The notes beneath the pieces were generated by a model that worked only from the letters and a program-made list of their open reading frames with translations, was not told where the DNA came from and made no database searches. The position numbers and the translations under genes were made by a program. 64,000 nucleotides of DNA from Orbus sasakiae (lineage in GTDB: Bacteria > Pseudomonadota > Gammaproteobacteria > Enterobacterales > Orbaceae), in assembly GCF_039542345.1 (NCBI RefSeq), contig NZ_BAABHY010000006.1, positions 28,292 through 92,291 on the forward strand, in the 5' to 3' direction. Below, in pieces: positions 1 through 16,808 of this stretch; the first letter of the stretch is position 1; each line of letters opens with the position of its first letter.

Positions 1-1
1 T

Positions 2-361: not shown

Positions 362-380
362 ATAACCTAAAACGCTCTAT

Positions 381-406
381 AACGCCCATAATGGGCGTTT
401 TTTATT
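381..406 (+). terminator. Rho-independent terminator after the portal gene
   Basis: Hairpin aacgcccat/atgggcgtt followed by a T-run. Confidence 0.6.
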
Positions 407-846: not shown

Positions 847-1028
847 AGATAAATCACCTCAAAATTAATATTTAGTTTAACTTATCAAAAATAAGTAGTG
901 AGTTATCGCGCGATATAGAAATGCTAACGGATAAATACCTCAATTGCATTAGTTTAATCAATATCCATTTGTTTGATTAAATCGTTGATTTCTTAATTTA
1001 AAATTTGCTATTATAAAAAGTTTTGTTC

Positions 1029-1628: not shown

Positions 1629-1637
1629 TTTCTTAAC

Positions 1638-2780: not shown

Positions 2781-2800
2781 TCCAATACCTTATATTTGAG

Positions 2801-2829
2801 TTATAAAAAAGTAGCCCACACAGTGGGCT
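2801..2829 (-). terminator. Rho-independent terminator (minus strand) insulating the cargo cassette from the early operon
   Basis: On the minus strand: cagcccac-tgt-gtgggctg followed by TTTTTTAT. Confidence 0.5.
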
Positions 2830-2867
2830 GTTGGATTTTATATGGTTTTAGGTATTAAGTCACTTTG

Positions 2868-3068
2868 TTACTTAGCTTTTTTCATTACGCTGTATAGTAG
2901 ATCTGCAATGCAGCTTACTGCGATTATGAATTCGTTTTTATTTGTATGATCGGCACTTAATAGGAATCGGGCGAGTAGTTCGGCTTGTTCGAGTTTTGCG
3001 TAACTGTCTATGTTAATTTGAACTGTATCGTTAGAAGTTGCAATGTTTAAAATTGATTGGTTTTTCAT
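2868..3068 (-). CDS. Small phage hypothetical protein (66 aa from the internal ATG)
   Basis: ATG with an AAAAGGA RBS. The track ORF 2868..3158 probably carries an N-terminal over-extension. Confidence 0.4.
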   Translation of the reverse strand: MKNQSILNIATSNDTVQINIDSYAKLEQAELLARFLLSADHTNKNEFIIAVSCIADLLYSVMKKAK

Positions 3069-3311
3069 GACTAAATTCCTTTTGGGTTTAGATAATTTAA
3101 TCACCACCAGCACGCCAATACTGGGGGTGAACTGAACAAGGTTGGCGTACCGCCCCAAAAGATCACGGCGAGCCTTTCGGCTCCCTCATCCAGCCCACCA
3201 TAGAAAAGATGCAACTAGATTGTAAGCATAAAAATACCGCATTGAGCGGTTATGCTCTTTTGGGAATAATCCAAGACGCCAATCTTGACGTTAGATTTTG
3301 CTAACGTGCTT

Positions 3312-3491
3312 TTAATATATATCTGTTTGGTTTTTGTTGTCAACTTTTCCCTTAATTGCCTTTAAATGGTCAAGCGCTTTTTGTAGCTGATCCAGTGAAC
3401 AATTGCAGCTATATTGTAGTGAATTTAATTCGTTAATAATTTTTAAAATAGTTGCTGGTGGCGGTCTCGGTCTAAATCTTGGTATGGCCAT
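3312..3491 (-). CDS. Small hypothetical protein (59 aa) immediately downstream of gpA (orf91-like position)
   Basis: ATG 10 nt after the gpA stop, with a GGAGAG RBS. Cys-containing. Confidence 0.3.
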   Translation of the reverse strand: MAIPRFRPRPPPATILKIINELNSLQYSCNCSLDQLQKALDHLKAIKGKVDNKNQTDIY

Positions 3492-3503
3492 GTTGCTCTC
3501 CTT

Positions 3504-5672
3504 TTAAAATGAGAATTCAAAATCATCAAATGTACTGATTTTTAACGGTTTTTTAGTGCTATTTTGTCTGTTCTGTGGTGAATTACAGACGATAAGATGC
3601 ACTCCATTTAAAGTGTTATCTAATTTTAAGTATTGGTTTTGACTGATTTTTATACTTTCTCGTAAATAAAGTCGATTTACAGCCAGATCATCATCTGGAA
3701 TACCGATTATTTTTAGCTGTTTTTTTATTTCTTCTCGCTGATCGTCCGCATCATCTTTAAAATTCTGCGTACAGTTATTGACAGAACTCCAAGGCGTGCG
3801 TTCCGCACGATTTTTAAGGTCAAGAGCCTTGCTTGTTTGGCCTTTTTGGATAATCTTACATTTTATTAACCTGGTGCAAATGTATGACGTTAGCCCGACG
3901 ATAGGGGAAAACACACCATTGATTTTTTTGATTGGCTCTTCATATTGGTTGAGTTGCTCTTCATAAGATAGGCGAACGGCTAGATCTTTGCGTTTTACCA
4001 TAGGTCCACCTTGATGGATAGTGTAAGCAGCCCAATCGCCGATATCGGCAGAAGCAAGAACAGGATCGATCACGCTTTCATCTACTGTTTTATCTTTGAG
4101 CCGGCGCAACTCTCGCCAAACAGTAACAGGCGCACCGCCTATTTGTTGAAATTGTCTAATCTTCCATCTGCTTGCCCATGCGGTAACGGCTTTTGCCATA
4201 TTCTTTAAGTTTTGACCAGATTCATTATCGACCGCATCATCAAGTGCATAACCATCAATATTTTTAGATATATATTTTGCTATGTAACCTGTGGCACTCC
4301 CTTTTTCTTTCTCAATCATTTTGAATTCAAAACGGTTTTTAGCGGCTCCTTTTTCGTGACCATCTTCATCCATGGCGTAGATCCACATAATTTTAAATGC
4401 TTTGCTGATATCTTCGGGACGCATAAAAACAAGAATATGCCAATGAGGTGTTCCGTCGTGATGTGGTTCGGCAACTCGAAAACCAAAAACTTTGATATCT
4501 TCACGGGATAGTTTTGCTCGGATTCGTGACCACACTTTACATAAATAGGCTTGAGTATCTTGAGGCGTATTACCAATCCAATTTTCAACAAAGCCACCTC
4601 TTGAATAAACACTGTGATATTTAGATGGGGCGGTTAAAGTAATAAAAGCGCCACAATAGCCAAACTCTTCAGCAATATCTTCAAAACCACGCATACGATT
4701 CATTAACTCAACTCGGCGAATAGCTGGATTAGCAATGGATTTGTAAACTTGTAAATCAAGTGGGATCTGCTCGCCAGTTTCCTCATTTTCGATTGCCATT
4801 CGTTCAAGGTATTTACGATTTCGGCGTTTTTGTTCGTTGAATTCGTTGATACATGAACGGCTTGCGTATGGGCTGGCTTTAGCTTGAACTTGACCAACAG
4901 CAATGGCTAAATGTTCTTTTTGAGTATCACGGCGACGTTGCAATTTATTACGCCACCAATCTTCATTGGTGACTTTTGCCCATGCTTTTATGATGTTTTC
5001 ATTGGTGAGTTTGTCATTTTTATAATCAGCATAGTAGGGCGGTGTAACATTGATTCCGTTTAACTCTTTCAAAATGAGTGAGTAAATTTTGTGTTCGATT
5101 GAATTTTGGTTCACTTCATTAGCTGAAAGAGAAAACGAACTTTCATCCAGTTTTTGAGTGATTAAGTTATTAATATGGCGAGCAATATCGACACTTAATT
5201 TATTAATGCTTTCACGCTCGTATGTTGGCAACTTTTCAAACTCGGCACCAAATACGATAGTCAACGAACTTGGCTTATCTGCTTCATATTTTTGATTTAA
5301 AAGATCAAGTCGACCTTTGATATTTCCGCCTAAGGTTTTGCGTAAAAAAGTATTCGCAGCACGGCGACTTTTCGACTGAAATAAATCAATATATTTATTG
5401 GTAAAATAACTACTTAAATAGTTTGGCAAATTGCCAATATAGTTAGATCTAAAGGCATGATCTTCGTGGTCAATATTCCACAGTTTTATTTCATTATAGG
5501 AAATATCATCAGGAATTCTTTTAGCTACAATTGGCTTTGCTGTTGGCGTTCTATCCACTTTTTTATTTGGTAAGAATCGCCCAACATTTTCATAATAATC
5601 ACGCATAGCCACAAACAAGGAATATTTATCCTTGTTTGAGATTAATGGTAATTGTTGCGTGAATGAGACCAT
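3504..5672 (-). CDS. Phage replication initiation endonuclease, P2 gpA family (rolling-circle HUH nuclease)
   Basis: 722 aa. Contains 'HHDGTPHWHILVF', the HUH-type motif typical of the P2 A / phiX174 A superfamily. Size and position match P2 gene A. Confidence 0.85.
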   Translation of the reverse strand: MVSFTQQLPLISNKDKYSLFVAMRDYYENVGRFLPNKKVDRTPTAKPIVAKRIPDDISYNEIKLWNIDHEDHAFRSNYIGNLPNYLSSYFTNKYIDLFQSKSRRAANTFLRKTLGGNIKGRLDLLNQKYEADKPSSLTIVFGAEFEKLPTYERESINKLSVDIARHINNLITQKLDESSFSLSANEVNQNSIEHKIYSLILKELNGINVTPPYYADYKNDKLTNENIIKAWAKVTNEDWWRNKLQRRRDTQKEHLAIAVGQVQAKASPYASRSCINEFNEQKRRNRKYLERMAIENEETGEQIPLDLQVYKSIANPAIRRVELMNRMRGFEDIAEEFGYCGAFITLTAPSKYHSVYSRGGFVENWIGNTPQDTQAYLCKVWSRIRAKLSREDIKVFGFRVAEPHHDGTPHWHILVFMRPEDISKAFKIMWIYAMDEDGHEKGAAKNRFEFKMIEKEKGSATGYIAKYISKNIDGYALDDAVDNESGQNLKNMAKAVTAWASRWKIRQFQQIGGAPVTVWRELRRLKDKTVDESVIDPVLASADIGDWAAYTIHQGGPMVKRKDLAVRLSYEEQLNQYEEPIKKINGVFSPIVGLTSYICTRLIKCKIIQKGQTSKALDLKNRAERTPWSSVNNCTQNFKDDADDQREEIKKQLKIIGIPDDDLAVNRLYLRESIKISQNQYLKLDNTLNGVHLIVCNSPQNRQNSTKKPLKISTFDDFEFSF

Positions 5673-5684
5673 AGCTAATGAACC

Positions 5685-6509
5685 CTAAACCATATCTGGC
5701 GTTAATACGCCTATAATTTCTTTGGCTTGTTCTCGGTTGCCATTGGCGGCGACAGATCGCCGTGCTTGGATTGAATAAATTTTAAATTGTCGGAATAGGT
5801 AACGGGTATCTGATGTATCGTGATTAGAGATCACAGCACATGCGCCACGTTTTACAGCTTTATAAAGGTGGTAAGCTAATTGTTCCGTTTCGTTATAATC
5901 AAAAGTTGATGGTGTATACCCGTTAAAGCTAACGTCACCACCTAACGGCAAATAAGGGGGATCACAATAAATTACATCACCATTACTAGCGTAGTTAACG
6001 GTGTTTTTATAATCACAGCGAAGCAGTTCAATTGAAAAAGGAATTTGATTCAGCTTTTCTGAAAAAAGCATTAATTCATTAGTAGGATTGTATATATTTT
6101 TATGTTTACCCTCTGGAACATTAAATTGACCACTTTTATTGTATCGGCATACACCATTAAAGCAGTGGCGATTTAAATAGATAAATAATGCAGCTCGTTT
6201 ATTTGTTTGAGATGAGTTATTAAATAATTCCCTTGCTTCATAATAATTAGGGTTTTGACTAAAATAGAAATCAACAAGCGAGATTAATTTTTGTGGCTCT
6301 GCTTTTAACCGGTTATAAACATTGATCAAATCCTGATTAATGTCCGCTAAAAGATACTGTTTATAATTGGTATTGATAAAAACATTACCGCCACCAACAA
6401 AAGGTTCAATCAACCGTTCGCCTTTTGGTAAATACTGCAATAATTGAGGAATAACTCGGCCTTTTCCGCCCATCCATTTAAGGAAAGAGCGATTTGTTTT
6501 AGTTTGCAT
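5685..6509 (-). CDS. dam: DNA adenine methyltransferase, Dam ortholog (D12 class)
   Basis: 'FLKWMGGKGRV...EPFVGGGNVF...NRHCFNGVCRYN...CDPPY' aligns with E. coli Dam motifs by eye. Confidence 0.85.
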   Translation of the reverse strand: MQTKTNRSFLKWMGGKGRVIPQLLQYLPKGERLIEPFVGGGNVFINTNYKQYLLADINQDLINVYNRLKAEPQKLISLVDFYFSQNPNYYEARELFNNSSQTNKRAALFIYLNRHCFNGVCRYNKSGQFNVPEGKHKNIYNPTNELMLFSEKLNQIPFSIELLRCDYKNTVNYASNGDVIYCDPPYLPLGGDVSFNGYTPSTFDYNETEQLAYHLYKAVKRGACAVISNHDTSDTRYLFRQFKIYSIQARRSVAANGNREQAKEIIGVLTPDMV

Positions 6510-6525
6510 TGTGAACCCTTAAAAC

Positions 6526-7326
6526 TTAATAGTTACTATCTTTTATCCAAATACATTCCTTACGGATGATTTGGCCTTTTTGACCTGCTGCGCGTGCTGG
6601 TGAAGTTCTTTTTTGCCAGACAAATAAATAGTCGTTATATAAATCGCAATCGTATCCAGAAATAACCACGCTTCCGGACAGATTATTTGCTGAAATTAAT
6701 AATTGTTCGTGGTCGTCAATTGCCATTTCGTATTGATAAACATTGGTTGATGTTCTTGTTTCGCTCATGTAGGGCGGATCTAAATAGAACAAGGTTTTTG
6801 GTGAATCGTGTTTTTGTAATAGTTCCAATGCCGGAATATTTTCTATAATCACGCCAGTTAAGCGTTGGCAAATAAATGCTAAGTTGTTAGGTATTTTTGC
6901 CCATACTGTTGCATCAGTGGTTTTGCCTTTTCTTGTGCTACCCGAAAAGCCAGTACAACCTTTAATGCAACCAGTTGAAGAAAAAGACATAAATGACCTA
7001 ACTAACATTCGGCGAGCCTGTTCAACTTGCTGCGAACCTAAACTATTACCGGCATCAAAATACTCACTGCGGTGAAATGGTGTTAATGCAACTAAATCAA
7101 TTAGTTGCTTGGAAAGAATCGGATCCCTTAATACCTTAAATAAATTGACAACATCATTATTAAGATCGTTATAAACCTCATTACCCAATCTTGGTTTTTG
7201 AAGTAATACGCCAGCAGCACCGCCAAAGGCTTCAACATAAATTTCATGTTTAGGAAAATGGCTAATAATCCAAGGGGCTAACCTAAATTTACCGCCAAAA
7301 TATCTTAATAATGGATGTTTGATCAT
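6526..7326 (-). CDS. Second N6-adenine DNA methyltransferase (D12 class, divergent from Dam)
   Basis: 'RYFGGKFRLAPWI...EAFGGAAGV' (motif I) and 'DPPY' (motif IV). Confidence 0.75.
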   Translation of the reverse strand: MIKHPLLRYFGGKFRLAPWIISHFPKHEIYVEAFGGAAGVLLQKPRLGNEVYNDLNNDVVNLFKVLRDPILSKQLIDLVALTPFHRSEYFDAGNSLGSQQVEQARRMLVRSFMSFSSTGCIKGCTGFSGSTRKGKTTDATVWAKIPNNLAFICQRLTGVIIENIPALELLQKHDSPKTLFYLDPPYMSETRTSTNVYQYEMAIDDHEQLLISANNLSGSVVISGYDCDLYNDYLFVWQKRTSPARAAGQKGQIIRKECIWIKDSNY

Positions 7327-7529
7327 TTTGTTAATCTTTCCTTAATTTGCTGACAATCAACACACAACTTACAGCCTTGTAGGAGTTGGCGGCGTTTTTC
7401 GGGAATGGGGTCGCCACACTCGAGGCAGTTAATTGCCGATTCGCCTACAAATACGGTTTGCCGTTTAACTAAAATGTTATCGATTTCTTGTTGTGCTAAA
7501 TCATTGGCACGGTCGATTGTGTCTCGCAT
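7323..7529 (-). CDS. TraR/DksA-family C4 zinc-finger protein (phage)
   Basis: 'CLECGDPIPEKRR...CKLCVDCQ' C4 arrangement. 68 aa. 4-nt overlap with the upstream gene. Confidence 0.7.
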   Translation of the reverse strand: MRDTIDRANDLAQQEIDNILVKRQTVFVGESAINCLECGDPIPEKRRQLLQGCKLCVDCQQIKERLTK

Positions 7530-7762
7530 TAGGCATGCGCCTCGTGCTTTTCGTTTTGCATTTTTGTGGCTTCTTGCTCTAAAAGTTCGGCTGCTTCATG
7601 TGGCGATAAAAAATTGATGCGGATGTGACCTGCTAAACGTTCTAAACGAGCGGAAAATACATCACATAAACCTTGTTTTGTTTCTGTTTTGGCTTGATTT
7701 AATGCCATTAGTAATGCATCACCTTCAAACCCATTAAGCGAAGTCATTGGATTGTTCGACAT
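7529..7762 (-). CDS. Phage hypothetical protein
   Basis: ATGA overlap with the downstream gene. Lies in the early operon. Confidence 0.45.
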   Translation of the reverse strand: MSNNPMTSLNGFEGDALLMALNQAKTETKQGLCDVFSARLERLAGHIRINFLSPHEAAELLEQEATKMQNEKHEAHA

Positions 7763-8162
7763 GATTAGCTCCTTTTGCTATGTGAGCGACAAGATCCGCT
7801 CGTTGTTGTAACTGGCGATGTAAATCGCAATTCATTTTTTTTGCTTCAATATGTACTTTTTGGAAATCTTCTTTTTTGCAGTTAACAAACTGATTAACAA
7901 TGATTTGTAATCGTTTAATGCCAACCGACAATTTTTTGACATCACTATCACTTAACTGTGACCAACTGGATTGGTCTGTCTCTAAGCCGGATGCAATTAA
8001 TAAATAGCGTTTTTGATTAGGTGATAAACGTTCAAAAGCCAAACGGGCCAAACTGCGATCATTAACAATCAGTTCTCGACATGCCCGAATATGTTCAAGG
8101 TTATTCATTCTTTGGGCTTTGGCTTGCGGTGTTTCTTGAATAGCCATAAAAATCACCTTCAC
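7734..8162 (-). CDS. Phage early protein, unknown function (in the position of a P2 B-like gene)
   Basis: 142 aa. Lies in the early operon between the Cox-like gene and gpA. Confidence 0.5.
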   Translation of the reverse strand: MKVIFMAIQETPQAKAQRMNNLEHIRACRELIVNDRSLARLAFERLSPNQKRYLLIASGLETDQSSWSQLSDSDVKKLSVGIKRLQIIVNQFVNCKKEDFQKVHIEAKKMNCDLHRQLQQRADLVAHIAKGANHVEQSNDFA

Positions 8163-8172
8163 AAAATAATTA

Positions 8173-8307
8173 TTAACGTTGAGTTAACTTAACCGCTTTG
8201 CCGTTTGGTTTTTCGATCCAACCTTTGCGGTTATGGTTGTTGGTTTTGATAAAAATTAAAGCAGGCTTATCGGCTGCTTTTGGACTTAAATAGATTGCGT
8301 GGCTCAT
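8173..8307 (-). CDS. Small phage protein (44 aa), translationally coupled (ATGA) to the Cox-like gene
   Basis: AGGA RBS. Start overlaps the upstream stop. Occupies the P2 orf78-like position. Confidence 0.3.
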   Translation of the reverse strand: MSHAIYLSPKAADKPALIFIKTNNHNRKGWIEKPNGKAVKLTQR

Positions 8308-8549
8308 GATTTATCCTCGTCGAGTTTTAACTCTGGGTTAAATGCTTTTGCACCTTCCAAAGTTAAGGCTGTCATGTTGATAAGCGTTGTAGAACGGTCG
8401 TACTTACCAGTGATTTTCTTTTTACGAATAGGGAGCTTACCTTCGCTAATGTACTTTTTAACGGTGCGAGGATTCATGCCCGACACACGAGCAAACTCGT
8501 CAACCGTGACATAAGGTGATGAAATAGCTATTGATATTGTTGGCGTCAT
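8304..8549 (-). CDS. HTH DNA-binding regulator (Cox/Apl-like early-operon regulator)
   Basis: 81 aa. 'TVDEFARVSGMNPRTVKKYISEGKLP' is an HTH. First gene of the leftward early operon, divergent from the repressor. Confidence 0.55.
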   Translation of the reverse strand: MTPTISIAISSPYVTVDEFARVSGMNPRTVKKYISEGKLPIRKKKITGKYDRSTTLINMTALTLEGAKAFNPELKLDEDKS

Positions 8550-8669
8550 AGTGCATTATTCCTAGTTAGATGATTTTATATGTTCAAATAGGTAAAATCT
8601 AAATTCAAGTTAAATATATTCTAAATTGAATTTAGAGTCAACGCCTTTTTATTAACTTTAGGTTTGATT
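8550..8669. promoter_or_regulatory. Immunity-switch intergenic region with repeated half-sites (putative operators)
   Basis: Half-site ctaaatt occurs twice direct (8600, 8621) and once inverted (8629-8635), forming a perfect 7+7 palindrome ctaaattGaatttag. AT-rich divergent promoters. Confidence 0.4.
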
Positions 8670-9029
8670 ATGAAAATTAATTTTGAAAGTGGTGGTGCGG
8701 AAGTTATAGATAGAATTATTAAGGCCTATGGTTTTAGGACAAAATTGGAATACAGTAATTATTTAGGCACATCTTCGGCTAATATGTCTGCACGTTATAA
8801 AAAAGGTTTTTTCCCTTCAGACTTAGTTGTCCGATGTATGGCCGAAACGGGCGCAACATTGGAATGGCTTGTTACTGGTGAGGGCGAGTTTTCACCAAAC
8901 GAACCAACCCCAAAAGAAACCGTTCTATCGGATGAAACACTGGAAAAACTTGAACGATTAGTCACCCTAAAAGAAAAGGGCGCAATAACCGAACAAGAGT
9001 TTAATGATCTTAAAGCTAAGTTGATTTGA
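8670..9029 (+). CDS. CI-type phage repressor with a C-terminal SHOCT-like domain
   Basis: The N-terminus resembles the Phage_CI_repr HTH. C-terminal 'LEKLERLVTLKEKGAITEQEFNDLKAKL' is a SHOCT-like motif. An AGGT RBS precedes ATG 8670; the track ORF starts at an upstream TTG. Confidence 0.65.
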   Translation: MKINFESGGAEVIDRIIKAYGFRTKLEYSNYLGTSSANMSARYKKGFFPSDLVVRCMAETGATLEWLVTGEGEFSPNEPTPKETVLSDETLEKLERLVTLKEKGAITEQEFNDLKAKLI

Positions 9030-9075
9030 TTATTATTTAGATAAAAATTATGGCCTAATAAAAAATGGATAACTA

Positions 9076-10173
9076 ATGAAAAAATTCGTATTTAAGAAAG
9101 ATAAAAAGCATTGGCTGAGGATGGTCGAAAAACGTAATGATAGAAGAAAAGAGTCAAAAAATGATAAGCATTTAAGCACAATAGGAAGCAAATCACTTTA
9201 TGCTAATTCCAAAAAACGTGAAAAAGTTATTATGCCTAAAATTGTAGCACCCAGGATAATGTTGCTAAAAGTTAGTGAATATTACAATCAATTTATTAAT
9301 TTCATTAACGACTTTGAAAGACTATGTAAAAAAGCTAATGAGTTAAAATTTAGATTTGAATTAGACTTGAGCCATATAAAAGAGATGTATGGAGATGCTT
9401 GTGTATTATTCATTGCATCAGTTGACAGCATGTATCAACTATATCCAAATTTAAAAATCAAAATAAGGAAGCCAATAAAAGACATTACCTCTCGATATGA
9501 TCCTCATGCCGTCTTTTGTCACCTTGGTTTTTATAAATTATTTGGCCTAGAATACTCAGCTGATTGTTCAAGTGAGAATGTAGTATGTTGGAGGTATGTA
9601 ACTGGTGATTTAGCTGATGGGCAATTAACAGAACCTTTGATGAAAACATTAAATGATATGGGAATTAATACAAAGGAATTATATAGAAGCTGTATTGAAG
9701 GTATTGCTAATGCTGTTGAGCATGCATATATTCCACAGATTAAGTCTTCTCGTGATGTTAGAAATAAAAAATGGTGGATGTTATTAGCTAAATTGGATGG
9801 TAAATTACTATTATTTGTTTATGATCGTGGGCATGGAATTCCATCTACTTTGGAGTACACCCAAGATCAAAAAATTCTAAAGGAAATATGGAAAAAACTA
9901 AAACAACTAGTATCACCAACAAAGGATTGCTTATATATTAAGGCCTCAATGTTAGTAAAAGAAACTAGAACTGAATTAAATTATAGAGGTAAAGGAACAG
10001 GAGACATAAAATCATTTATAGACAAAACTGAAGGTAATCTTTTGAGAATATACTCAAGTAGAGGCACAATGATTTATAAAGGTGAATCTACGCCATCATT
10101 TTGCTATGATAACTCCATATCTATTAATGGTACTCTATTGCAGTGGAGTATCAAATTGCAGGATACTATATGA
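9076..10173 (+). CDS. GHKL (HATPase_c) domain protein, SpoIIAB/RsbW-like Ser-kinase/ATPase fold in the C-terminal half
   Basis: N-box 'EGIANAVEHAY', G1 box 'YDRGHGIP', G2 box 'GKGTGD'. N-terminal ~190 aa unassigned. Confidence 0.55.
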   Translation: MKKFVFKKDKKHWLRMVEKRNDRRKESKNDKHLSTIGSKSLYANSKKREKVIMPKIVAPRIMLLKVSEYYNQFINFINDFERLCKKANELKFRFELDLSHIKEMYGDACVLFIASVDSMYQLYPNLKIKIRKPIKDITSRYDPHAVFCHLGFYKLFGLEYSADCSSENVVCWRYVTGDLADGQLTEPLMKTLNDMGINTKELYRSCIEGIANAVEHAYIPQIKSSRDVRNKKWWMLLAKLDGKLLLFVYDRGHGIPSTLEYTQDQKILKEIWKKLKQLVSPTKDCLYIKASMLVKETRTELNYRGKGTGDIKSFIDKTEGNLLRIYSSRGTMIYKGESTPSFCYDNSISINGTLLQWSIKLQDTI

Positions 10174-10496
10174 AAACTATTTATGTTAGAGATTTTACTA
10201 AATACCCTGGAGCAAGACTTAGGAAATTAGGTCCGGGCAGTGGCGAAGAGTTTAGAGATGATTTTCTTATTCCACAACTGGATGGTAAAAATATTCAGAT
10301 CAATTTTGATGGAACTATTGGTTATGGTTCTTCTTTTCTTGAAGAAGCTTTTGGAGGCTTGATAAGAAAAGGAATTGATAAAGAAATTGTTTTGCACCTT
10401 GTTGATACAGCGATCTCGGATGAAGATCCATTATTGAAGAAAGAACTACTCATTTATGTAACGGAAGCTATCGCCGTTAACAAAAAAGGTAAATGA
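10170..10496 (+). CDS. STAS-like (DUF4325-like) small protein, candidate partner of the GHKL protein
   Basis: ATGA overlap with the upstream gene. 'ARLRKLGPGSGEEFR...INFDG..GYGSSFLEEAFGGLIRKG' resembles the DUF4325/STAS pattern. Confidence 0.45.
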   Translation: MKTIYVRDFTKYPGARLRKLGPGSGEEFRDDFLIPQLDGKNIQINFDGTIGYGSSFLEEAFGGLIRKGIDKEIVLHLVDTAISDEDPLLKKELLIYVTEAIAVNKKGK

Positions 10497-10497
10497 T

Positions 10498-10929
10498 ATG
10501 ACTACATCTGATTGGATTTCATTATGTTCATTGTTTATCGCGTTAATTGGAGTTCCTTTAGGATATTATTTAGGTTGCAGAAGTGCAAGACATGCAGCAT
10601 ATAATGACATGATTGATACTTTGGAAAGCATAACTCAGACAACATTTAATCTATTTTTAGAAATTTATACCAAACAGTCTGTAAATGATATTAAAGATTA
10701 CCATTTGATGATTGCTTATTATAAAAAGATACAAAGACATTGTTCCGAACTGAGAACAATGAAAAAAATCGCAATGCATAACAAAATAGACAATTTGTTG
10801 ATAGAAGTTAAACAAATAATGACAGATAAATTATTTCATGCAAATGAAGCAATAAAACAAAACTCACTTAGTGAGTTAATAGTGAAAATGGATGAACTGA
10901 ACGCTTTATACACAAAACGTTTTTATTAA
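10498..10929 (+). CDS. Small membrane-anchored protein (1 N-terminal TM), third gene of the moron
   Basis: Start 1 nt after the upstream stop. N-terminal hydrophobic helix 'ISLCSLFIALIGVPLGYYLG'. Confidence 0.5.
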   Translation: MTTSDWISLCSLFIALIGVPLGYYLGCRSARHAAYNDMIDTLESITQTTFNLFLEIYTKQSVNDIKDYHLMIAYYKKIQRHCSELRTMKKIAMHNKIDNLLIEVKQIMTDKLFHANEAIKQNSLSELIVKMDELNALYTKRFY

Positions 10930-10979
10930 TTAAATTATTTTTTGTTATTTTACCGTTATAGAGACCTTTTCTATTATTA

Positions 10980-11999
10980 ATGACAGTACGCAAACAAAAA
11001 TCAGGTAAATGGTTATTTGAAAAATACCTTGATGGTGGTCGTAGAGTTCGTAAGACTTTTGCAACCAAAGGCGAGGCATTAGCTTATGAAAATTATTTAG
11101 AAGAACAAACCAACGAAAGGCCTTGGTTAGGTGAAAAGATTGATCGCCGGCGTATTTCTGATTTAATTGATACTTGGTTTAATTCTCATGGTAAAGCGCT
11201 TGATAATGGTGAAAAGGTAAAGGGTATTTTAACTTTTATCTGTGAGTGTATTAATAATCCGTTAGTTGATGATTTTACTGCTAAAACATTTACCAATTAC
11301 CGTAAAAAAAGAATGTCTGGCGAATTTTTCCGGACAGAAAAAAAGAAAACTGTATCACTAAACACCTTAAATAAAGAGTTAATCTATTTTAGGGCTGTTT
11401 TTAATGAATTGAAACGCCTTGGCGAATGGGATAAACCAAACCCACTAGAGAACATCAAAGTCTTTAAACTTGATGAAACAGAGATGGCATGGCTAACCCA
11501 CGAGCAGATAGATCATCTCTTAAAGGAATGTGCTAATAGCCAGGCAGAACATCTTTTACTTAAAGTACAAATTGGATTGTCAACTGGTGCCCGATGGGGT
11601 GAAATCAACAACCTTACGGGCTTAAATGCTATTGATAATAAAATTACTTATGTAAAAACCAAAGGCCGTAAAAATAGAACAATTCCTATATCGAAACAGT
11701 TATTTGATCGAATACCAAAAACACAAGGTAAGCTGTTCCCAGATGGCGATAATATTAGTGCATTCCGAAAAGCTTTAAATCGATGTAATATCTCTTTACC
11801 TGATGGACAACTAACACACGTTCTAAGACATACATTTGCAGCCCATTTTATGATGAATGGTGGCAATATTCTTGTATTACAAAAAATACTCGGACACCAA
11901 GATATAAAAGTCACTATGAGATATGCTCACTTTGCTCCAGATCACTTTGAGCAAGCGATTGAGTTGAACCCTTTGAATAAACAAAATATTAGCAGGTAA
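10980..11999 (+). CDS. int: Tyrosine integrase, P2 Int family
   Basis: 'LSTGARWGEI', 'HVLRHTFAAHFMMNGGNILVLQKILGH...MRYAHF' align with P2 Int catalytic motifs (R..HxxR..Y). Confidence 0.9.
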   Translation: MTVRKQKSGKWLFEKYLDGGRRVRKTFATKGEALAYENYLEEQTNERPWLGEKIDRRRISDLIDTWFNSHGKALDNGEKVKGILTFICECINNPLVDDFTAKTFTNYRKKRMSGEFFRTEKKKTVSLNTLNKELIYFRAVFNELKRLGEWDKPNPLENIKVFKLDETEMAWLTHEQIDHLLKECANSQAEHLLLKVQIGLSTGARWGEINNLTGLNAIDNKITYVKTKGRKNRTIPISKQLFDRIPKTQGKLFPDGDNISAFRKALNRCNISLPDGQLTHVLRHTFAAHFMMNGGNILVLQKILGHQDIKVTMRYAHFAPDHFEQAIELNPLNKQNISR

Positions 12000-12003
12000 C
12001 ATT

Positions 12004-12714
12004 ATGGATAAAACTTATAATATTTATTGTGATGAATCATGTCATTTAGAACATGATAACCAAACGGCAATGGTATTAGGTTCGGTATGGTGTCCATTCT
12101 CGAAAAGAGAGGAAATATCTAAGCGAATTAGAGAGATAAAGCAAAGAAATAATATGTCACCTCATTTTGAAATTAAGTGGACAAAAGTTAGTGAAGGTAA
12201 TTTACGTTTATACATGGATATTATTGACTATTTTTTTGACGATGATGATTTGTATTTTAGGGGCTTAGTGGTTCCAAATAAAAATGTTCTAGACCATGAA
12301 AAATTTAATCAAACGCATGATGAATGGTATTACAAAATGTACTTTTTATTATTGAAAATGATATTTGAACCATGCAATAAATATAATGTATATATTGATA
12401 TTAAAGATACCACTGGCAATACTAAAGTTATAAAATTACATAATATATTATGTAATAGTGCTTATGATTATTCACATAATATTATTCAAAAAATTCAAAG
12501 AATTCACTCCCACGAGTCTGAACAGTTACAAATAGCAGATCTTATTATTGGTGCTTTATCTTATCTATTTAGAGGGCTTGCAGATAATAAAGCCAAAGTA
12601 AAAATAATTGAAAGGATAAAACAACGTACACAATTAAGTTTAACAAAAAACACATTACCTAAAGCAAAAAAATTTAATCTTCTAATATGGGATAAAAAAG
12701 AGGGAGATGAATAA
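12004..12714 (+). CDS. DUF3800-like protein (cargo gene between int and att)
   Basis: N-terminal 'YNIYCDESCHLEHDN' and a later 'EQLQIADLIIG' resemble DUF3800 conserved motifs (recalled from memory, unverified). Confidence 0.45.
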   Translation: MDKTYNIYCDESCHLEHDNQTAMVLGSVWCPFSKREEISKRIREIKQRNNMSPHFEIKWTKVSEGNLRLYMDIIDYFFDDDDLYFRGLVVPNKNVLDHEKFNQTHDEWYYKMYFLLLKMIFEPCNKYNVYIDIKDTTGNTKVIKLHNILCNSAYDYSHNIIQKIQRIHSHESEQLQIADLIIGALSYLFRGLADNKAKVKIIERIKQRTQLSLTKNTLPKAKKFNLLIWDKKEGDE

Positions 12715-13190
12715 TGTCTGAATGGTTACCGCCTATAATTCCTAATAATGGCTACAACGATTGGAATCATTACTTTAATGCAATATATAAAGTATTTGAG
12801 CAAGATTTTGTTATAGATAGACCAGTATATAATGGTGTCCGGTTAGGATTGAAAAATCACCCCGAATATAATGGAAAATCTGCCACATTTTGGCATCTTA
12901 TCTCTGAGGGGAGCATTGAAGAAGAGCGATTACCTTGCACTTATAGATGCGAACGAATTACGTATCCTAAACCAATTATTGATAATAGTAATGATGGATG
13001 TTTAAAAATATGGACAGAATTACGAAAAGGAGAAAATAGAATTCATATATGGTATGAAGATGAAAATTACCTTGTTGTATTAGCGGAACGCAAAAAAGGT
13101 TACATATTACCATGGACCGCTTTTTATATAAAAGAAGAACATAGCAAAATAAAATATAATCGGAGATGGATGCAGTATAAAGATAAGTAA
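12714..13190 (+). CDS. Hypothetical protein, translationally coupled partner of the DUF3800-like gene
   Basis: The start overlaps the upstream stop (TAATG). 158 aa, no motif recognised. Confidence 0.5.
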   Translation: MSEWLPPIIPNNGYNDWNHYFNAIYKVFEQDFVIDRPVYNGVRLGLKNHPEYNGKSATFWHLISEGSIEEERLPCTYRCERITYPKPIIDNSNDGCLKIWTELRKGENRIHIWYEDENYLVVLAERKKGYILPWTAFYIKEEHSKIKYNRRWMQYKDK

Positions 13191-13461
13191 TTTAGGCTGG
13201 CCTCGCCCTTATATTAGGACGGGACCGTATCTCCTTCAACACATGGTAGATGAGATGGCGTTATTATAACAATAATAATTGTGTAAAGTCTATAATTACA
13301 AACAAATATGTGACCTTTGTCATAAGTTCGGTAGGAAATCTGTTACCATAATGGCGGTAAAACGGCGGTTAAAAATCTTTTTATATGTTCTTTTGTGTGT
13401 TTATATGTTTTTTAACTAATTGATTTATTTGTAACTTATTGTTTTTATTGTATCGATTAAA

Positions 13462-13509
13462 GGATTGAAAATCCCCGTGTCCGTGGTTCGATTCCGCGTC
13501 CGGGCACCA
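13462..13509 (+). other. 3'-terminal 48 nt of tRNA-Phe(GAA) (anticodon stem to CCA): prophage att core, not a complete tRNA gene
   Basis: ggattGAAaatccccgtgtccgtggttcgattccgcgtccgggcacca matches the E. coli tRNA-Phe 3' half with compensatory T-stem changes. No 5' acceptor or D arm upstream. Confidence 0.75.
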
Positions 13510-13558
13510 ATCACCAAATTTTAAGACCTGCTTCCAGCAGGTTTTTTTATGCCTAAAG
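13487..13558 (+). repeat. Direct repeat copy 1 (tRNA-Phe 3' end plus ~48 bp downstream flank including terminator)
   Basis: ~72 bp, near-identical to 16419..16490. Confidence 0.75.
13527..13549 (+). terminator. Rho-independent terminator (native tRNA-Phe terminator carried in the repeat)
   Basis: cctgcttccagcagg followed by TTTTTTT. Confidence 0.6.
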
Positions 13559-13745
13559 CCTTTTGATGAAAGCCTTTCACCTTGTTTTACTACTCAACTC
13601 ACTTCAACAGATATTACCCCAAATCAAGTTCAAAAGTGGATACAAATGCGGGTACATTTGGTTCGATAATGGCGTGTATCCATAAATTAGTCTTAATTGC
13701 TTTGTTTGCAATGGTTAGCAGGATTTGCTAGTGAGAATATCAATT

Positions 13746-14885
13746 TTATCTGAATAAATTATCATACAAATTAGTTTTTTGAAGATTGTTATTTAACTCT
13801 TCAACTGAATTAATTATTTTATTTTTACAGGGATAATAAAATGAGCTATAAAATTGCCAAAAATTGATATCTGTATCACAAGTTTCCATATTCAGTATCA
13901 TGTCAAAATGGTGATTAATGTATTTTATTATCTCATTGAAAATGAAATCTGTAGTTTTATTGATATGCTCCCACTTTTTAGGTGGGGGAAGGTCTAGGAA
14001 GAATTTATCAGTTGTATCTATTATTTCTTTTATCACATCTTGTTGATCTTCCGTTATTAAAGCGTGGAACACAGTAATAGCTAATAGTTCAAAGAAACAA
14101 AAATACCGTTCAATATTTCCCCCTAAATTAATGTTTTCTTTATAGCTTTCTAATTTAGAATAAGAAGCACGATAATCGATAGATGTTGATATATTTTTTA
14201 TCAATAAATTATAAATAGGATAGTTATCAAACCTGTAACTTCCATATGAGGAAACCCGCTTTTCATAAATATTATCAATAATTTTATTTCCTATTTCCTC
14301 AATATAAGCAGAGGTCTTTTCTTTATATGTTTCTTTGAGATTATTATAAAAATTGATTCTTTCTGTTGAAGAAAATCGTTTTCGTAGAACTTCATCAATT
14401 TCAAAATTACTTTTTTTATCAGCTTTATTTTTTATGATATTGTTACTCATTTTGAATAATATTGCCGACGGTATTTTTAATATTTTATAGTCATGTTTTT
14501 CTAAAATCATATCTGTAGATGAAAACAATGGATTTAAAGATAAACAATATGATTTTGTATTTAAAATCCAGTAATCATGTTTAAAAAAACCACTATTGAT
14601 TAGTTTGTTTGTTACAACCTGTTTTTCTATTGAAAAATAAATTTCGGTTATATCGCTTAATTGTTCAATTTGCTCTAAGTAATCAGGATATTGCCTAAAT
14701 AGTGAATTTATCTCTTGCCACTCTTCTTTTTTTAGAAAATTGCTTAAGTGGAAACATTGATTGCTACAAAAGAATTTATTATTTGTTTTAAGCACTGCCC
14801 TGTTACAAAACTGACATTTTTTTTCGATGAAATCAGACGCTTTAACACGATTACGTTCCCAGTTTATATAATGAATCAAGCACAA
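13746..14885 (-). CDS. Hypothetical protein with an N-terminal Cys4 zinc-ribbon (orphan gene in the att-bounded islet)
   Basis: 379 aa. 'CQFCNRAV...CSNQCF'. Extremely AT-rich with Asn/Ile/Lys-rich codon usage. Confidence 0.55.
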   Translation of the reverse strand: MCLIHYINWERNRVKASDFIEKKCQFCNRAVLKTNNKFFCSNQCFHLSNFLKKEEWQEINSLFRQYPDYLEQIEQLSDITEIYFSIEKQVVTNKLINSGFFKHDYWILNTKSYCLSLNPLFSSTDMILEKHDYKILKIPSAILFKMSNNIIKNKADKKSNFEIDEVLRKRFSSTERINFYNNLKETYKEKTSAYIEEIGNKIIDNIYEKRVSSYGSYRFDNYPIYNLLIKNISTSIDYRASYSKLESYKENINLGGNIERYFCFFELLAITVFHALITEDQQDVIKEIIDTTDKFFLDLPPPKKWEHINKTTDFIFNEIIKYINHHFDMILNMETCDTDINFWQFYSSFYYPCKNKIINSVEELNNNLQKTNLYDNLFR

Positions 14886-14961
14886 CTTTTTTTGTTTAGC
14901 ATAAGGATGTGATCTGCTCTTAGTTTAGTGGAGACTTTTTAACAACAAAAAGGAGTCTCAT

Positions 14962-15255
14962 ATGAACAAAAAATACGATCCAAAATTTAAACAAGAAGCG
15001 GTTAATTTAGCACTAAATAACGAACAAACTTATCGACAAACAGCGAATGATTTAGGTATAAATTACAAAACATTTTGTAATTGGATATATCAAACGATGA
15101 ATAAACCTACCCATCAAGCGATAAAATCAAATAAAAAACCAGACTATCAAGAACTCGAGCGTCAAAATGAAGCGATGAAAAAAGAGCTTGAGCTACGCAA
15201 AAAGGAGATCGAAATTCTAAAAAAGGCCGCTCAGTACTTTGCAAGCCTGAAATAG
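14962..15255 (+). CDS. IS3-family transposase OrfA (HTH/leucine-zipper)
   Basis: 97 aa, typical IS3 OrfA. Slippery AAAAAAG lies near its 3' end. Confidence 0.8.
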   Translation: MNKKYDPKFKQEAVNLALNNEQTYRQTANDLGINYKTFCNWIYQTMNKPTHQAIKSNKKPDYQELERQNEAMKKELELRKKEIEILKKAAQYFASLK

Positions 15256-15302
15256 CAAGGTACGAATTTATTAAGAAGCAAAACGATTTATCTAAGCAAC
15301 GT

Positions 15303-16013
15303 TTGTTTCATCTATTTGACGTGTCGAGCAGTGGTTATTATGCCTATTTAAAACGGTCTCCGTCTCAGAGGATGTTGTTTAATGAGCAGCTTGACAAAAG
15401 AATTGCAGCACTATTTGAAGAGCATCGGTGTCTATACGGTTATAGACGTTTACATGTCGAACTTTTGGAGCAAGGCTATTATTTATCACGTGAACGAGTT
15501 CGTCGACGAATGAATAAACTTCACCTAAAGGCAAAACAACGCAAAAAGTATAAACAAACAACAGACAGTAACCACGACAAACCCGTTGCTGAAAATATTT
15601 TAGACAGGCATTTTTCAATGAATGCACCAAATCAAGCTTGGGTATGCGATATCACCTATATTAGAGTGAACGGGCAGTGGCTATACCTCGCTATTGTACT
15701 TGACCTCTACTCTCGTAAAATCATAGGCTGGGCGATGGATATACGCATGGAAAGCGCCCTCGTTTGTCAAGCCTTAACAATGGCTTTGCTTCATCGTGCT
15801 TATCCGAGTAAAGTGATTGTTCATAGTGATCGCGGCAGTCAGTATTGCTCAGAGGATTATCAAGCCATATTAACGGCTTATGGCTTAACGTGTAGTATGA
15901 GCCGCAAAGGTAACTGTTGGGATAATGCGGTGGCTGAAAGCTTTTTCCATACATTAAAAACAGAATGGATTTATCGACACAAACTAGAAAATATGGCAAA
16001 GCCAAGTCGATGA
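15303..16013 (+). CDS. IS3-family transposase OrfB (DDE core). The C-terminal ~30 codons continue in another frame to ~16110, so the 3' end looks frameshifted
   Basis: DDE-region motifs 'VHSDRGSQY...NCWDNAVAESFF'. The expected C-terminus '...YIEVYYNRVRKHSYLNYLSPVQFE' is encoded out of frame after 16013. Confidence 0.7.
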   Translation: MFHLFDVSSSGYYAYLKRSPSQRMLFNEQLDKRIAALFEEHRCLYGYRRLHVELLEQGYYLSRERVRRRMNKLHLKAKQRKKYKQTTDSNHDKPVAENILDRHFSMNAPNQAWVCDITYIRVNGQWLYLAIVLDLYSRKIIGWAMDIRMESALVCQALTMALLHRAYPSKVIVHSDRGSQYCSEDYQAILTAYGLTCSMSRKGNCWDNAVAESFFHTLKTEWIYRHKLENMAKPSR

Positions 16014-16418
16014 TCTTGTGGTATATTGAGGTTTACTATAACCGAGTAAGAAAGCATTCTTATTTAAACTATTTATCACCCGTTCAATTTGAAGAAAAGA
16101 GGATTTAATAGTTTCAAAATAACTCTCCACTTAAATGTGGGCAGATCAGTTGTAACTGCTACCTTAGATATTGACTCACTTCGAGCATTCCAAAGCCGAG
16201 CAAAACGCTGGCCTGAAGAAGGGGACAAGTTTAAACCAGTACCTGAAGGGTTCAAATTATCAAAAGACAGAAGAAAACTACCTCCTAAGTAAAATTATAG
16301 TAGAAATATCTTCACTGAACATAAATATAAAAGAAATAAAATTAAAGGATACAAACCCGGATACATCCTCTCACCTAAAATCCACCGACCCAATAACCCC
16401 AATGCTTTAGCCTATCTA

Positions 16419-16490
16419 TTCGATTCCGCGTCCGGGCACCAATTACCAAATTTTAAGACCTGCTTCTAGCAGGTTTTTTTATGTCTAAAA
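16419..16490 (+). repeat. Direct repeat copy 2 (last 23 nt of tRNA-Phe plus downstream flank)
   Basis: ttcgattccgcgtccgggcacca plus flank. Matches copy 1 with a few substitutions. Confidence 0.75.
16459..16481 (+). terminator. Rho-independent terminator (second copy)
   Basis: cctgcttctagcagg followed by a T-run. Confidence 0.5.
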
Positions 16491-16808
16491 CCCATTAAAA
16501 CCTACAAAAGCTTATGAAGAAAGGCTTTTCAGTAATATACTAAACTCTTGATTTATCGACTATTACTCATTTTGAACTCCACCGAAGTCAATCTACATTA
16601 CCCCACATCAACAAGCAAAAAGGGTAAAAAAGAGGGTAACACTCGGTTCAATTTAGGTTGTTACCCTTATGAAGAGTAAAAAGATAGATTATTTCTAGCA
16701 TAACGACATATTTTACAAAAAAGATCCTTCCAAAAATATTAAATAGCAATAATTCGTTGAAAAAAAATATCTTGTTTATATAATTTGGATTAATAATTTG
16801 ACAGTACC

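What the first reader, a model, noticed from the sequence alone, without database searches (positions are those of the whole stretch)
13462..16490. Duplicated tRNA-Phe 3'-end att cores delimit a 2.9-kb degenerate islet (orphan Zn-ribbon gene plus IS3) next to the P2-like prophage
The prophage right end is a 48-nt tRNA-Phe 3' fragment. A second 23-nt copy lies 2.9 kb downstream. Both are followed by the same ~48-bp flank, including the native tRNA terminator. Between them sits only an AT-rich 379-aa gene with an N-terminal Cys4 ribbon and an IS3 element whose right end abuts a 3' gene remnant (16130..16292, '...LRAFQSRAKRWPEEGDKFKPVPEGFKL'). This suggests serial integration or decay of a second element at the same tRNA, or IS-mediated rearrangement. 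The intact tRNA-Phe gene should lie at the far (left) prophage end outside the window.
Basis: seen in the sequence. Interest (0 to 1): 0.5.

Follow-up and report, generated by a model that had tools for sequence, protein, structure and literature searches.

The report
Stacked mobile-element scars at tRNA-Phe
Two leftover pieces of a tRNA-Phe gene mark where a P2-like prophage and an older, now gutted, genomic island inserted one after the other in Orbus sasakiae; this is an ordinary, well-known kind of integration hotspot.

Summary
A 74-nt direct repeat (13487-13560 and 16419-16492, 95% identical) starts at the first base of the tRNA-Phe T-loop. Copy 1 is part of a 48-nt tRNA-Phe 3' fragment, and no complete tRNA gene is present at either copy. 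The host is Orbus sasakiae.

The two fragments fit two integrase classes.
- The 48-nt fragment (anticodon stem to CCA) is the integrase-proximal att of a P2-like prophage. Related integrases carry tRNA-Cys or tRNA-Met fragments in the same geometry.
- The 23-nt core is the same 23 bp that flanks E. coli GI-pheV (P4-like integrase) islands.

A profile built only from E. coli tRNA-Phe-to-intP4 spacers hits the 64-kb window twice, directly after each repeat copy. The shared flank therefore looks island-borne, not native.

The islet has no integrase. It holds:
- a 5'-truncated orphan ORF;
- a defective IS3 with no target duplication;
- the last 47 codons of a UG5 reverse-transcriptase-nitrilase defence gene, cut exactly at the IS end.

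A third, older island scar right of copy 2 is possible. The phenomenon is known and interest is low.

The parts
1..13461 (.). Right-hand (early/integration) part of a P2-like prophage. It contains the portal C-terminus (8-361), a HEPN-like/AbiC-like pair (1029-2780), gpA replication protein (3504-5672, -), two Dam-type methyltransferases, a repressor-like gene (8664-9029) and the integrase. It extends left beyond the window.
   Evidence: Pfam Phage_GPA E=4e-106 and MethyltransfD12. PHROG portal and repressor matches. Nearest phages are P2-like at 45-56% aa identity.
10980..11999 (+). Tyrosine integrase of the P2-like prophage.
   Evidence: Pfam Int_N E=6e-33 and Phage_integrase E=5e-22. 431 relatives found in IMG/VR, mostly at the ends of ~30-kb contigs.
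12004..13190 (+). Two cargo genes between int and att: the candidate defence pair PDC-M04A (DUF3800) and PDC-M04B.
   Evidence: PADLOC E=1e-95 and E=3e-62.
13191..13461 (.). AT-rich non-coding phage arm next to the att core. It contains two TTTATATGTTYTTT repeats 20 nt apart. Calling these integrase or IHF sites is inference only.
   Evidence: Repeat family D5 and the sequence itself.
13462..13509 (+). 48-nt tRNA-Phe 3' fragment (anticodon stem to CCA). It is the att core at the prophage's integrase-proximal junction.
   Evidence: 46 of 48 identical to E. coli tRNA-Phe with a compensatory 50:64 change. Annotated as tRNA-Phe in E. coli. No full tRNA. Related phages show the same geometry.
13487..13560 (+). 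Repeat copy 1: 23 tRNA bases (T-loop to CCA) plus a 51-nt flank with a terminator hairpin (13523-13545 plus T-run).
13565..13668 (+). Arm 1: homologue of the spacer between tRNA-Phe and the P4-like integrase gene of E. coli pheV/pheU islands. The integrase gene that should follow at about 13710 is absent.
   Evidence: nhmmer E=1.7e-5, profile positions 54-158, collinear with the distance from CCA. No integrase remnant by tblastn.
13746..14909 (-). Orphan AT-rich ORF (379 aa from a TTG start) with a CxxC-x12-CxxxC motif. The frame stays open up to the IS3 end and has no ATG, so it is probably 5'-truncated.
   Evidence: Translation. Only a self-hit among 5.8 billion proteins. No Pfam, PADLOC or PHROG hit. 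GC 0.26.
14910..16148 (+). Defective IS3-family element with 25-bp imperfect inverted repeats, orfA (14962-15255), an A6G slippery site and orfB. orfB is broken by a frameshift near 15995. The flanks are ATG and GTT, so there is no target-site duplication.
   Evidence: Pfam HTH_Tnp_1 and rve. Inverted repeats. Frames and flanks.
16149..16292 (+). Last 47 codons plus stop of a UG5 reverse-transcriptase-nitrilase (DRT) defence gene. It starts at the first base after the IS3.
   Evidence: PADLOC RT_UG5-nitrilase positions 864-901 of 907, E=1.2e-10. tblastn of ~1075-aa relatives matches only their residues 1029-1075. Those relatives score E<1e-235 as RT_UG5-nitrilase.
16293..16418 (.). 126-bp spacer between the defence-gene stop and repeat copy 2. 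Reading it as the distal arm of the decayed island is inference.
   Evidence: Sequence. No similarity to the tRNA 5' part.
16419..16492 (+). Repeat copy 2: the 23-nt tRNA-Phe 3' end (16419-16441), which is the distal direct repeat of the islet, plus a 51-nt flank with a terminator hairpin (16455-16477).
   Evidence: The same 23 bp form the GI-pheV attR (PMC11537424).
16550..16668 (+). Arm 2: a second homologue of the tRNA-Phe-to-intP4 spacer, again with no integrase after it. It may be the scar of an older island.
   Evidence: nhmmer E=6.1e-7, profile positions 54-173. No integrase remnant.

Best explanation
The region is a tRNA-Phe integration hotspot in Orbus sasakiae that has been used several times by tyrosine-recombinase elements of two classes. 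Each class crosses over at a different place in the same tRNA gene.

An island of the E. coli GI-pheV type (P4-like integrase, core = last 23 nt of the tRNA starting at the T-loop) inserted first. It brought its own copy of the tRNA 3' end, a terminator and the integrase-upstream arm. It pushed the previous 3' end downstream, and that displaced piece is copy 2.

This island carried a UG5 reverse-transcriptase-nitrilase defence gene near its far end. IS3-associated deletion later removed about 96% of that gene. The island integrase was also lost, at an unidentified step. A 2.9-kb immobile stump remains.

A P2-like phage then inserted in the anticodon loop of the restored tRNA. That displaced a 48-nt fragment, which contains copy 1, to the phage's integrase-proximal end.

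Because copy 2 is itself followed by an island-type arm, a still older island of the same family had probably occupied the site before.

Shown here: the repeats, the tRNA identity, the arm homology, the identity and truncation of the remnant, the defects of the IS, and the absence of an island integrase.

Inferred: the order of events, the deletion mechanism, and the existence of an intact tRNA-Phe at the left prophage end.
For: Repeat and tRNA identity.

Phage class: integrases 54-68% identical have tRNA-Cys or tRNA-Met 3' fragments that begin at the anticodon stem, 0.1-2.5 kb downstream of int on the same strand, with no full tRNA.

Island class:
- The GI-pheV attR is the last 23 bp of tRNA-Phe, and intP4 lies next to the tRNA (PMC11537424).
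- In Klebsiella, the attB of P4-like group I.a integrases starts in the T-loop, while group II attB runs from the anticodon loop to CCA (10.1101/2020.11.02.365908).

Arm homology: a profile of four E. coli tRNA-Phe-to-intP4 spacers contains no tRNA bases. It hits the window only at 13565-13668 (E=1.7e-5) and 16550-16668 (E=6e-7). The next best hit has E=1.3. In E. coli the arm occurs with intP4 or its remnant (L099, L098) and not at a pheV without intP4 (L097).

Remnant. Full-length ~1070-aa genes are common, and about a dozen of 80 loci have a tRNA or tmRNA gene or fragment within 0.7-4 kb downstream. L087 has the same tail 450 bp before a tRNA 3' fragment.

IS defects and missing target duplication.

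L096 shows the same stacked architecture in an E. coli-type contig.
Against: No strain comparison is possible. O. sasakiae has one genome on record, the nearest MipA homologues are 55% identical, and their loci are not syntenic.

The left prophage junction with the intact tRNA lies outside the window.

No integrase, excisionase or other backbone gene of the putative island survives. Its class therefore rests on the 23-nt boundary and on about 100 nt of arm homology at modest scores (19-24 bits).

The 51-nt flank is 92% identical between copies, but the arms are only about 60-65% identical, and copy 2 has an extra ~53 nt. This unevenness is not explained.

No third repeat bounds the proposed older island within the window.
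Confidence: 0.75

Rival explanations
1. Same elements, opposite order. The P2-like phage integrated first, and the island later inserted into the displaced 48-nt fragment at the prophage's right junction. That fragment still contains the T-loop core.
For: The 48-nt fragment contains the full 23-nt core. The final structure would be identical.
Against: P4-like integrases normally use the intact gene. An island arriving after the phage would be expected at the restored tRNA on the left side of the prophage. Nothing here tests this directly.
Confidence: 0.12
2. There was only one island, and the flank after copy 2 (terminator plus arm-like block) is native chromosome. The incoming island's attP region simply shared long homology with the host locus.
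For: The 74-nt block is 95% identical. The E. coli pheV terminator shows loose resemblance, TTAAGA..stem..T-run. No third repeat or integrase lies to the right.
Against: The block after copy 2 is the better of the two matches to the E. coli intP4-upstream spacer (E=6e-7). In E. coli that spacer accompanies intP4 or its remnant and is absent from a pheV locus without intP4. Intergenic DNA would not be expected to stay conserved between Orbaceae and Enterobacteriaceae unless it travels with a mobile element.
Confidence: 0.1
3. The repeat arose without site-specific recombination. Either a local segmental or IS-mediated duplication copied the tRNA 3' end and its downstream region, or copy 2 is the stump of a second tandem tRNA-Phe gene.
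For: An IS3 with no target duplication lies between the copies. Similarity extends well beyond the tRNA.
Against: Copy 2 begins exactly at the first T-loop base, the canonical 23-bp GI-pheV boundary (PMC11537424). The IS is not adjacent to either copy. Foreign cargo (the defence-gene tail) abuts copy 2 through a 126-bp spacer. The second IS3-family element in the window is unrelated, so IS-IS recombination between them is unlikely.
Confidence: 0.05

Closest known systems
E. coli GI-pheV / pheU islands with P4-like integrase (intP4)
   Same: The distal direct repeat is the last 23 bp of tRNA-Phe. The tRNA is followed by an island-borne terminator and a ~200-bp spacer whose homologue follows both copies here. 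Decay to integrase-less stumps with IS elements is also seen at K-12-type pheU: arm, integrase fragment and IS1 (L098).
   Different: No integrase or any backbone gene survives here. The stump is 2.9 kb, against 10-110 kb. The host is an insect-gut Orbaceae. The repeat extends 51 nt beyond the tRNA at 92% identity. The cargo was a DRT defence gene rather than virulence genes.
P2-like (Peduoviridae) prophages that integrate in tRNA genes at the anticodon loop, such as relatives of Salmonella phage BIS20 and Cronobacter phage ESSI-2
   Same: gpA, portal, repressor and integrase are arranged as in P2, and the att core lies downstream of int. Related integrases carry anticodon-stem-to-CCA fragments of tRNA-Cys or tRNA-Met.
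   Different: The target is tRNA-Phe. No relative with this target was found in IMG/VR. A 1.2-kb PDC-M04 cargo pair sits between int and att. Only 45-68% aa identity to anything on record.
Tandem arrays of islands and prophages at one tDNA, as mapped by Islander-type analyses
   Same: The restored tRNA sits at one end and displaced 3' fragments stack downstream, each marking one integration (PMC4383910 abstract). L096 shows the same phage-type fragment followed by an intP4 island.
   Different: Nothing in kind. Here most of the second element has been deleted.
UG5 reverse-transcriptase-nitrilase defence genes (DRT; DRT11 was characterised in Sinorhizobium, PMC13436386)
   Same: The 47-aa tail matches the extreme C-terminus of this family.
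   Different: Only about 4% of the gene is present. There is no RT or nitrilase domain, so it is a pseudogene fragment and not a system.

Membership tests
GI-pheV-type genomic island (P4-like integrase, tRNA-Phe) | Distal direct repeat equal to the last ~23 bp of tRNA-Phe | tested here: met
   16419-16441 is TTCGATTCCGCGTCCGGGCACCA, identical to 13487-13509. It has the same extent as the E. coli attR.
GI-pheV-type genomic island (P4-like integrase, tRNA-Phe) | Island-borne terminator and integrase-upstream spacer directly after the tRNA 3' end | tested here: met
   nhmmer profile of E. coli spacers hits 13565-13668 at E=1.7e-5, collinear with the distance from CCA.
GI-pheV-type genomic island (P4-like integrase, tRNA-Phe) | P4-like tyrosine integrase gene next to the tRNA | tested here: not met
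   tblastn of an E. coli intP4 against the window gives nothing better than E~1 and nothing near either copy. The islet is therefore at most a remnant, not a functional member.
GI-pheV-type genomic island (P4-like integrase, tRNA-Phe) | Absent from the same locus in related strains (empty site) | not testable with these tools
   Only one O. sasakiae genome is on record, other Orbus loci are not syntenic, and the genome scans were exhausted.
P2-like prophage integrated in a tRNA gene | P2-type early genes (gpA, repressor, integrase) and a portal | tested here: met
P2-like prophage integrated in a tRNA gene | att core (tRNA 3' fragment from the anticodon stem) downstream of int | tested here: met
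   13462-13509. The same arrangement occurs in 20 related loci with tRNA-Cys or tRNA-Met fragments.
P2-like prophage integrated in a tRNA gene | Second junction with an intact tRNA-Phe and a complete late-gene set | not testable with these tools
   It lies left of the window. The window starts inside the portal gene.
IS3 family insertion sequence | orfA (HTH) and orfB (DDE rve) with an A6G frameshift site and terminal inverted repeats TG...CA | tested here: met
IS3 family insertion sequence | Intact transposase and a 3-4-bp target-site duplication | tested here: not met
   orfB changes frame near 15995, and the flanks are ATG and GTT.
UG5 RT-nitrilase (DRT) defence gene | Reverse-transcriptase domain fused to a nitrilase domain, ~1000-1100 aa | tested here: not met
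   Only residues 1029-1075 of ~1075 have a counterpart, at 16149-16289. No other part occurs anywhere in the 64 kb.

The most novel reading that the evidence does not exclude
The AT-rich 379-aa orphan with the Cys4 motif has no relative among 5.8 billion proteins. It might not be junk. It could be a new island cargo gene, for example a defence or toxin gene that once worked beside the UG5 RT-nitrilase. Alternatively, the recurrent survival of the RT-nitrilase 3' tail next to other defence genes could mean the tail region serves as a recombination boundary for swapping defence cargo.
Probability: 0.06. Interest if true: 0.4.

Novelty: new member of a known kind. Interest (0 to 1): 0.18.

Why it matters
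It matters mainly for annotation. It sets the right boundary of the P2-like prophage at 13509. It shows that the 2.9-kb stretch beyond is a dead island remnant rather than phage or core DNA. It also identifies a small annotated-looking ORF as the tail of a lost anti-phage gene.

It is a compact example of two integrase classes using different sub-sites of one tRNA gene. It extends GI-pheV-type island scars from Enterobacteriaceae to the insect-gut family Orbaceae. No new mechanism is implied.

Tried and rejected
- Strain or species comparison. The search for related loci with MipA found nothing. With AcrB it found only relatives of at most 71% identity in unrelated genera. Exact-protein look-ups of window genes were not on record. 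MipA loci of O. wheelerorum and O. hercynius are not syntenic and have no tRNA-Phe.
- Exact search for the tRNA-end-plus-flank pattern gave 0 hits in viral and in metagenome contigs.
- A 15-mer from the arm gave only chance hits in viral contigs. None lay near a tRNA fragment.
- The 48-nt core in viral contigs found one E. coli-type contig, not a P2-like relative.
- My first loci pattern had the wrong spacing and was redone.
- AlphaFold2 of the orphan ORF gave pLDDT 33.6, which is unusable, so no fold search was run.
- Rejected: a complete tRNA at 13462.
- Rejected: an integrase remnant after either copy.
- Rejected: recombination between the two IS3-family elements of the window. They are unrelated apart from family-level similarity.
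- Rejected: the remnant as an independent small gene. It is the C-terminus of ~1075-aa proteins.
Full report
**Source and setting.** The window comes from Orbus sasakiae (Orbaceae). The MipA gene at 16809-17552 is 100% identical to an NCBI O. sasakiae protein on a 271,580-bp contig. The next relatives, in O. wheelerorum and O. hercynius, are only 54-55% identical.

The left 13.5 kb is the early/integration end of a P2-like prophage.
- Portal C-terminus at 8-361.
- A HEPN-like/AbiC-like pair at 1029-2780.
- gpA at 3504-5672 (Pfam Phage_GPA, E=4e-106).
- Two Dam-type methyltransferases.
- A repressor-like gene at 8664-9029.
- A tyrosine integrase at 10980-11999.

The closest deposited phages are P2-like phages of Salmonella, Cronobacter and Yersinia, at 45-56% amino-acid identity.

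**Checking the observation.** The repeat finder reports a 74-nt direct repeat at 13487-13560 and 16419-16492, 95% identical.
- The four differences are transitions at 13512, 13535, 13552 and 13558. All lie outside the 23 tRNA bases.
- The 23-mer and the flank motif each occur exactly twice in 64 kb, with 0 expected from shuffles.
- 13462-13509 matches positions 29-76 of E. coli tRNA-Phe at 46 of 48. The two changes form a compensatory T-stem pair, 50:64.
- blastn places the stretch on annotated tRNA-Phe genes in all 5426 E. coli genomes.

- ARAGORN finds no tRNA at either copy.
- Rfam finds nothing in 12000-18000 at E<=1.
- The 28 nt upstream of 13462 match the tRNA 5' half at chance level, 8 of 28.

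Both flanks fold into the same 10-bp hairpin followed by a T-run, -12.1 kcal/mol each. The one coordinate correction is that the gene remnant begins at 16149, because 16124-16148 is the IS3 right inverted repeat.

**The prophage junction.** I fetched 80 IMG/VR loci whose integrases are 54-68% identical to the window's. None contains a complete tRNA.

Twenty of them carry a tRNA 3' fragment downstream of int, on the same strand. It runs from the anticodon stem to CCA and lies about 0.1 to 2.5 kb beyond the integrase gene. The fragments derive from tRNA-Cys(GCA) or tRNA-Met(CAU).

This is the geometry seen here: int ends at 11999, 1.2 kb of cargo follows, then a 270-bp AT-rich arm, then the 48-nt fragment. 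It also fits published surveys. [quoted passage not shown]

So 13462-13509 is the phage's integrase-proximal att junction. DNA to its right was bacterial at the time of integration, unless the islet arrived later.

**The second core and the shared flank.** Copy 2 begins exactly at the first T-loop base and retains 23 tRNA bases. The same 23 bp (TTCGATTCCGAGTCCGGGCACCA in E. coli) are the attR of GI-pheV islands. Those islands carry a P4-like integrase gene directly downstream of the tRNA (PMC11537424). In Klebsiella, the attB of P4-like group I.a integrases, including those that target phe, starts in the T-loop.

An E. coli-type viral contig (L096) happened to match the 48-nt core. In it, the sequence after the tRNA fragment resembled the sequence after both window copies.

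To test this without bias, I built a profile from four E. coli spacers. Each is the 195-197 bp between the CCA end of tRNA-Phe and the intP4 start codon, taken from L096, L099, L384 and L385. No tRNA bases are included. I scanned the whole window on both strands.
- Only two hits are significant: 16550-16668 (E=6.1e-7) and 13565-13668 (E=1.7e-5).
- Both lie on the + strand, directly after a repeat copy.
- The next best hit has E=1.3.
- For copy 1 the hit is collinear with the distance from CCA. For copy 2 there is an extra ~53 nt.

In E. coli this spacer accompanies intP4 (L099) or its wreck (L098: arm, integrase fragment and IS1 at pheU). It is absent at a pheV locus without intP4 (L097).

I therefore read the shared flank, terminator included, as the left end that such islands bring with them. 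I do not read it as the native terminator.

No integrase remnant follows either arm.

**Content of the islet (13561-16418).**

1. The ORF at 13746-14885 (- strand) has GC 0.26 and carries CQFC-x12-CSNQC.
   - Its frame stays open up to the IS3 end at 14909, and its only start candidate is TTG. It is probably 5'-truncated.
   - It has no relative other than itself among 5.8 billion proteins.
   - It has no Pfam, PADLOC or PHROG match.
   - A single-sequence AlphaFold2 model was unusable, with pLDDT 33.6.

2. An IS3-family element spans 14910-16148.
   - It has 25-bp imperfect inverted repeats, orfA, an A6G slippery site and orfB.
   - The C-terminal part of orfB is in another frame from about 15995.
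   - The flanking triplets are ATG and GTT, so there is no target duplication.

3. The "3' gene remnant" at 16149-16292 matches the last positions (864-901 of 907) of the PADLOC model RT_UG5-nitrilase at E=1.2e-10.
   - A profile of nine short metagenomic homologues finds 273 proteins. Most are ~1000-1100 aa and match at their extreme C-terminus.
   - Three of these score E<1e-235 as RT_UG5-nitrilase.
   - tblastn of the three against the window matches only their last 47 residues, at 16149-16289. No other part occurs elsewhere.

So about 1028 codons of a defence-associated reverse transcriptase gene are gone, and the break coincides with the IS3 end. The left IS flank is unrelated DNA and there is no target duplication. 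An IS-associated deletion, rather than a simple insertion, is the economical reading. This step is inferred.

UG5 RT-nitrilases are experimentally supported anti-phage genes (PMC13436386).

In 80 metagenome loci the gene is usually full length, about 1070 aa. About a dozen loci have a tRNA or tmRNA gene, or a tRNA 3' fragment, 0.7-4 kb downstream. In L087 a decayed tail lies 450 bp before a tRNA 3' fragment. This position near a tDNA island boundary matches the window.

**Model.** Serial site-specific integration occurred at one tRNA-Phe gene, by two integrase classes.

- A GI-pheV-like island with a T-loop core inserted first. It restored the tRNA with its own 3' end, terminator and arm (copy 1 and arm 1). 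It displaced the earlier 3' end, which is copy 2.
- Copy 2 is itself followed by an island-type arm (arm 2). This suggests the site had already been used by a still older relative. No third repeat exists in the window, so that element, if real, has lost its far end or extends beyond 64 kb.
- The P2-like phage then inserted in the anticodon loop and left the 48-nt fragment at its integrase side.
- IS3-associated deletion removed about 96% of the defence gene. The island integrase is also gone, though by what event is not known. The result is an immobile stump.

The reverse order, with the island inserting into the displaced fragment, gives the same structure and cannot be excluded.

Two things are unexplained. 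The 51-nt flank is 92% identical between copies while the arms are only about 60-65% identical. Copy 2 also carries an extra ~53 nt.

**What could not be done.** No empty-site comparison was possible, because only one O. sasakiae genome exists. MipA-based and AcrB-based genome scans gave nothing useful, and other Orbus MipA loci are not syntenic. The left prophage junction is outside the window. Exact-pattern scans for the flank found nothing in viral or metagenome contigs.

**Verdict.** It is an ordinary tDNA hotspot containing a prophage and a decayed island.

The refinements are:
- the assignment to two integrase classes;
- the island-borne, not native, nature of the shared flank;
- the identification of the remnant as a UG5 RT-nitrilase tail;
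- a likely third scar right of copy 2.

Novelty: a new member of a known kind. Interest is low.

Noticed in passing
window 12004-13190: The two genes between the P2-like integrase and its att core are the PADLOC candidate defence pair PDC-M04A (DUF3800) and PDC-M04B (E=1e-95 and E=3e-62). Several related phages also have 1-2.5 kb between int and the tRNA fragment. The int-att interval may therefore be a cargo hotspot in this phage group.
   Followed up: partly
window 1029-2780 (- strand): A 199-aa protein with a weak HEPN match and a 380-aa membrane protein with a putative AbiC domain lie between gpA and the portal gene. This is the position of tin/old in P2, so they are probably phage-borne exclusion or defence cargo.
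   Followed up: no
window 5685-7326 (- strand): Two adjacent D12-class (Dam-type) adenine methyltransferase genes lie in the prophage early region.
   Followed up: no
window 16809-24586: The block MipA, AraC-type regulator, AcrB/AcrA-like efflux pump and TetR-like regulator lies between the defective IS3 and a second, unrelated IS3-family element (23442-24586). The pump genes have GC 0.445, against 0.38 for the window. Their best genome matches are only 71% identical, in Achromobacter and Thauera. They were probably acquired horizontally and may be cargo of the older island.
   Followed up: partly
window 30849-30923: The only complete tRNA in the window, tRNA-Leu(CAG), sits between divergent rtcR (28917-30587, -) and an SPFH-domain gene plus rtcB (31211-34069, +). 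Rtc loci elsewhere contain tRNA-like RNAs. Whether this one is an ordinary tRNA gene was not examined.
   Followed up: no
L087 10001-10189; L090 8227-8379; L180 1109-1270; L181 65-307: Short orphan ORFs in metagenomes are decayed 3' tails of UG5 RT-nitrilase genes, truncated at different points. They often lie right after other defence genes (type I R-M, SIR2 plus HerA-like DUF87, PIN). This suggests repeated replacement of this gene in defence islands with the tail left behind.
   Followed up: partly
L091 1540-1560 (also L092-L095): In eight contigs from several samples the RT-nitrilase gene is split 47 codons before its end by one extra G in a G8 run. This could be a real slippage-prone tract or a homopolymer sequencing error.
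   Followed up: no
L096 1240-1520 (- strand): An E. coli-type IMG/VR contig shows the same stacked architecture as the window. A 50-nt tRNA-Phe fragment starting at the anticodon stem ends one element (ParA-like gene). The intP4 terminator, arm and integrase of a GI-pheV-type island follow immediately.
   Followed up: partly
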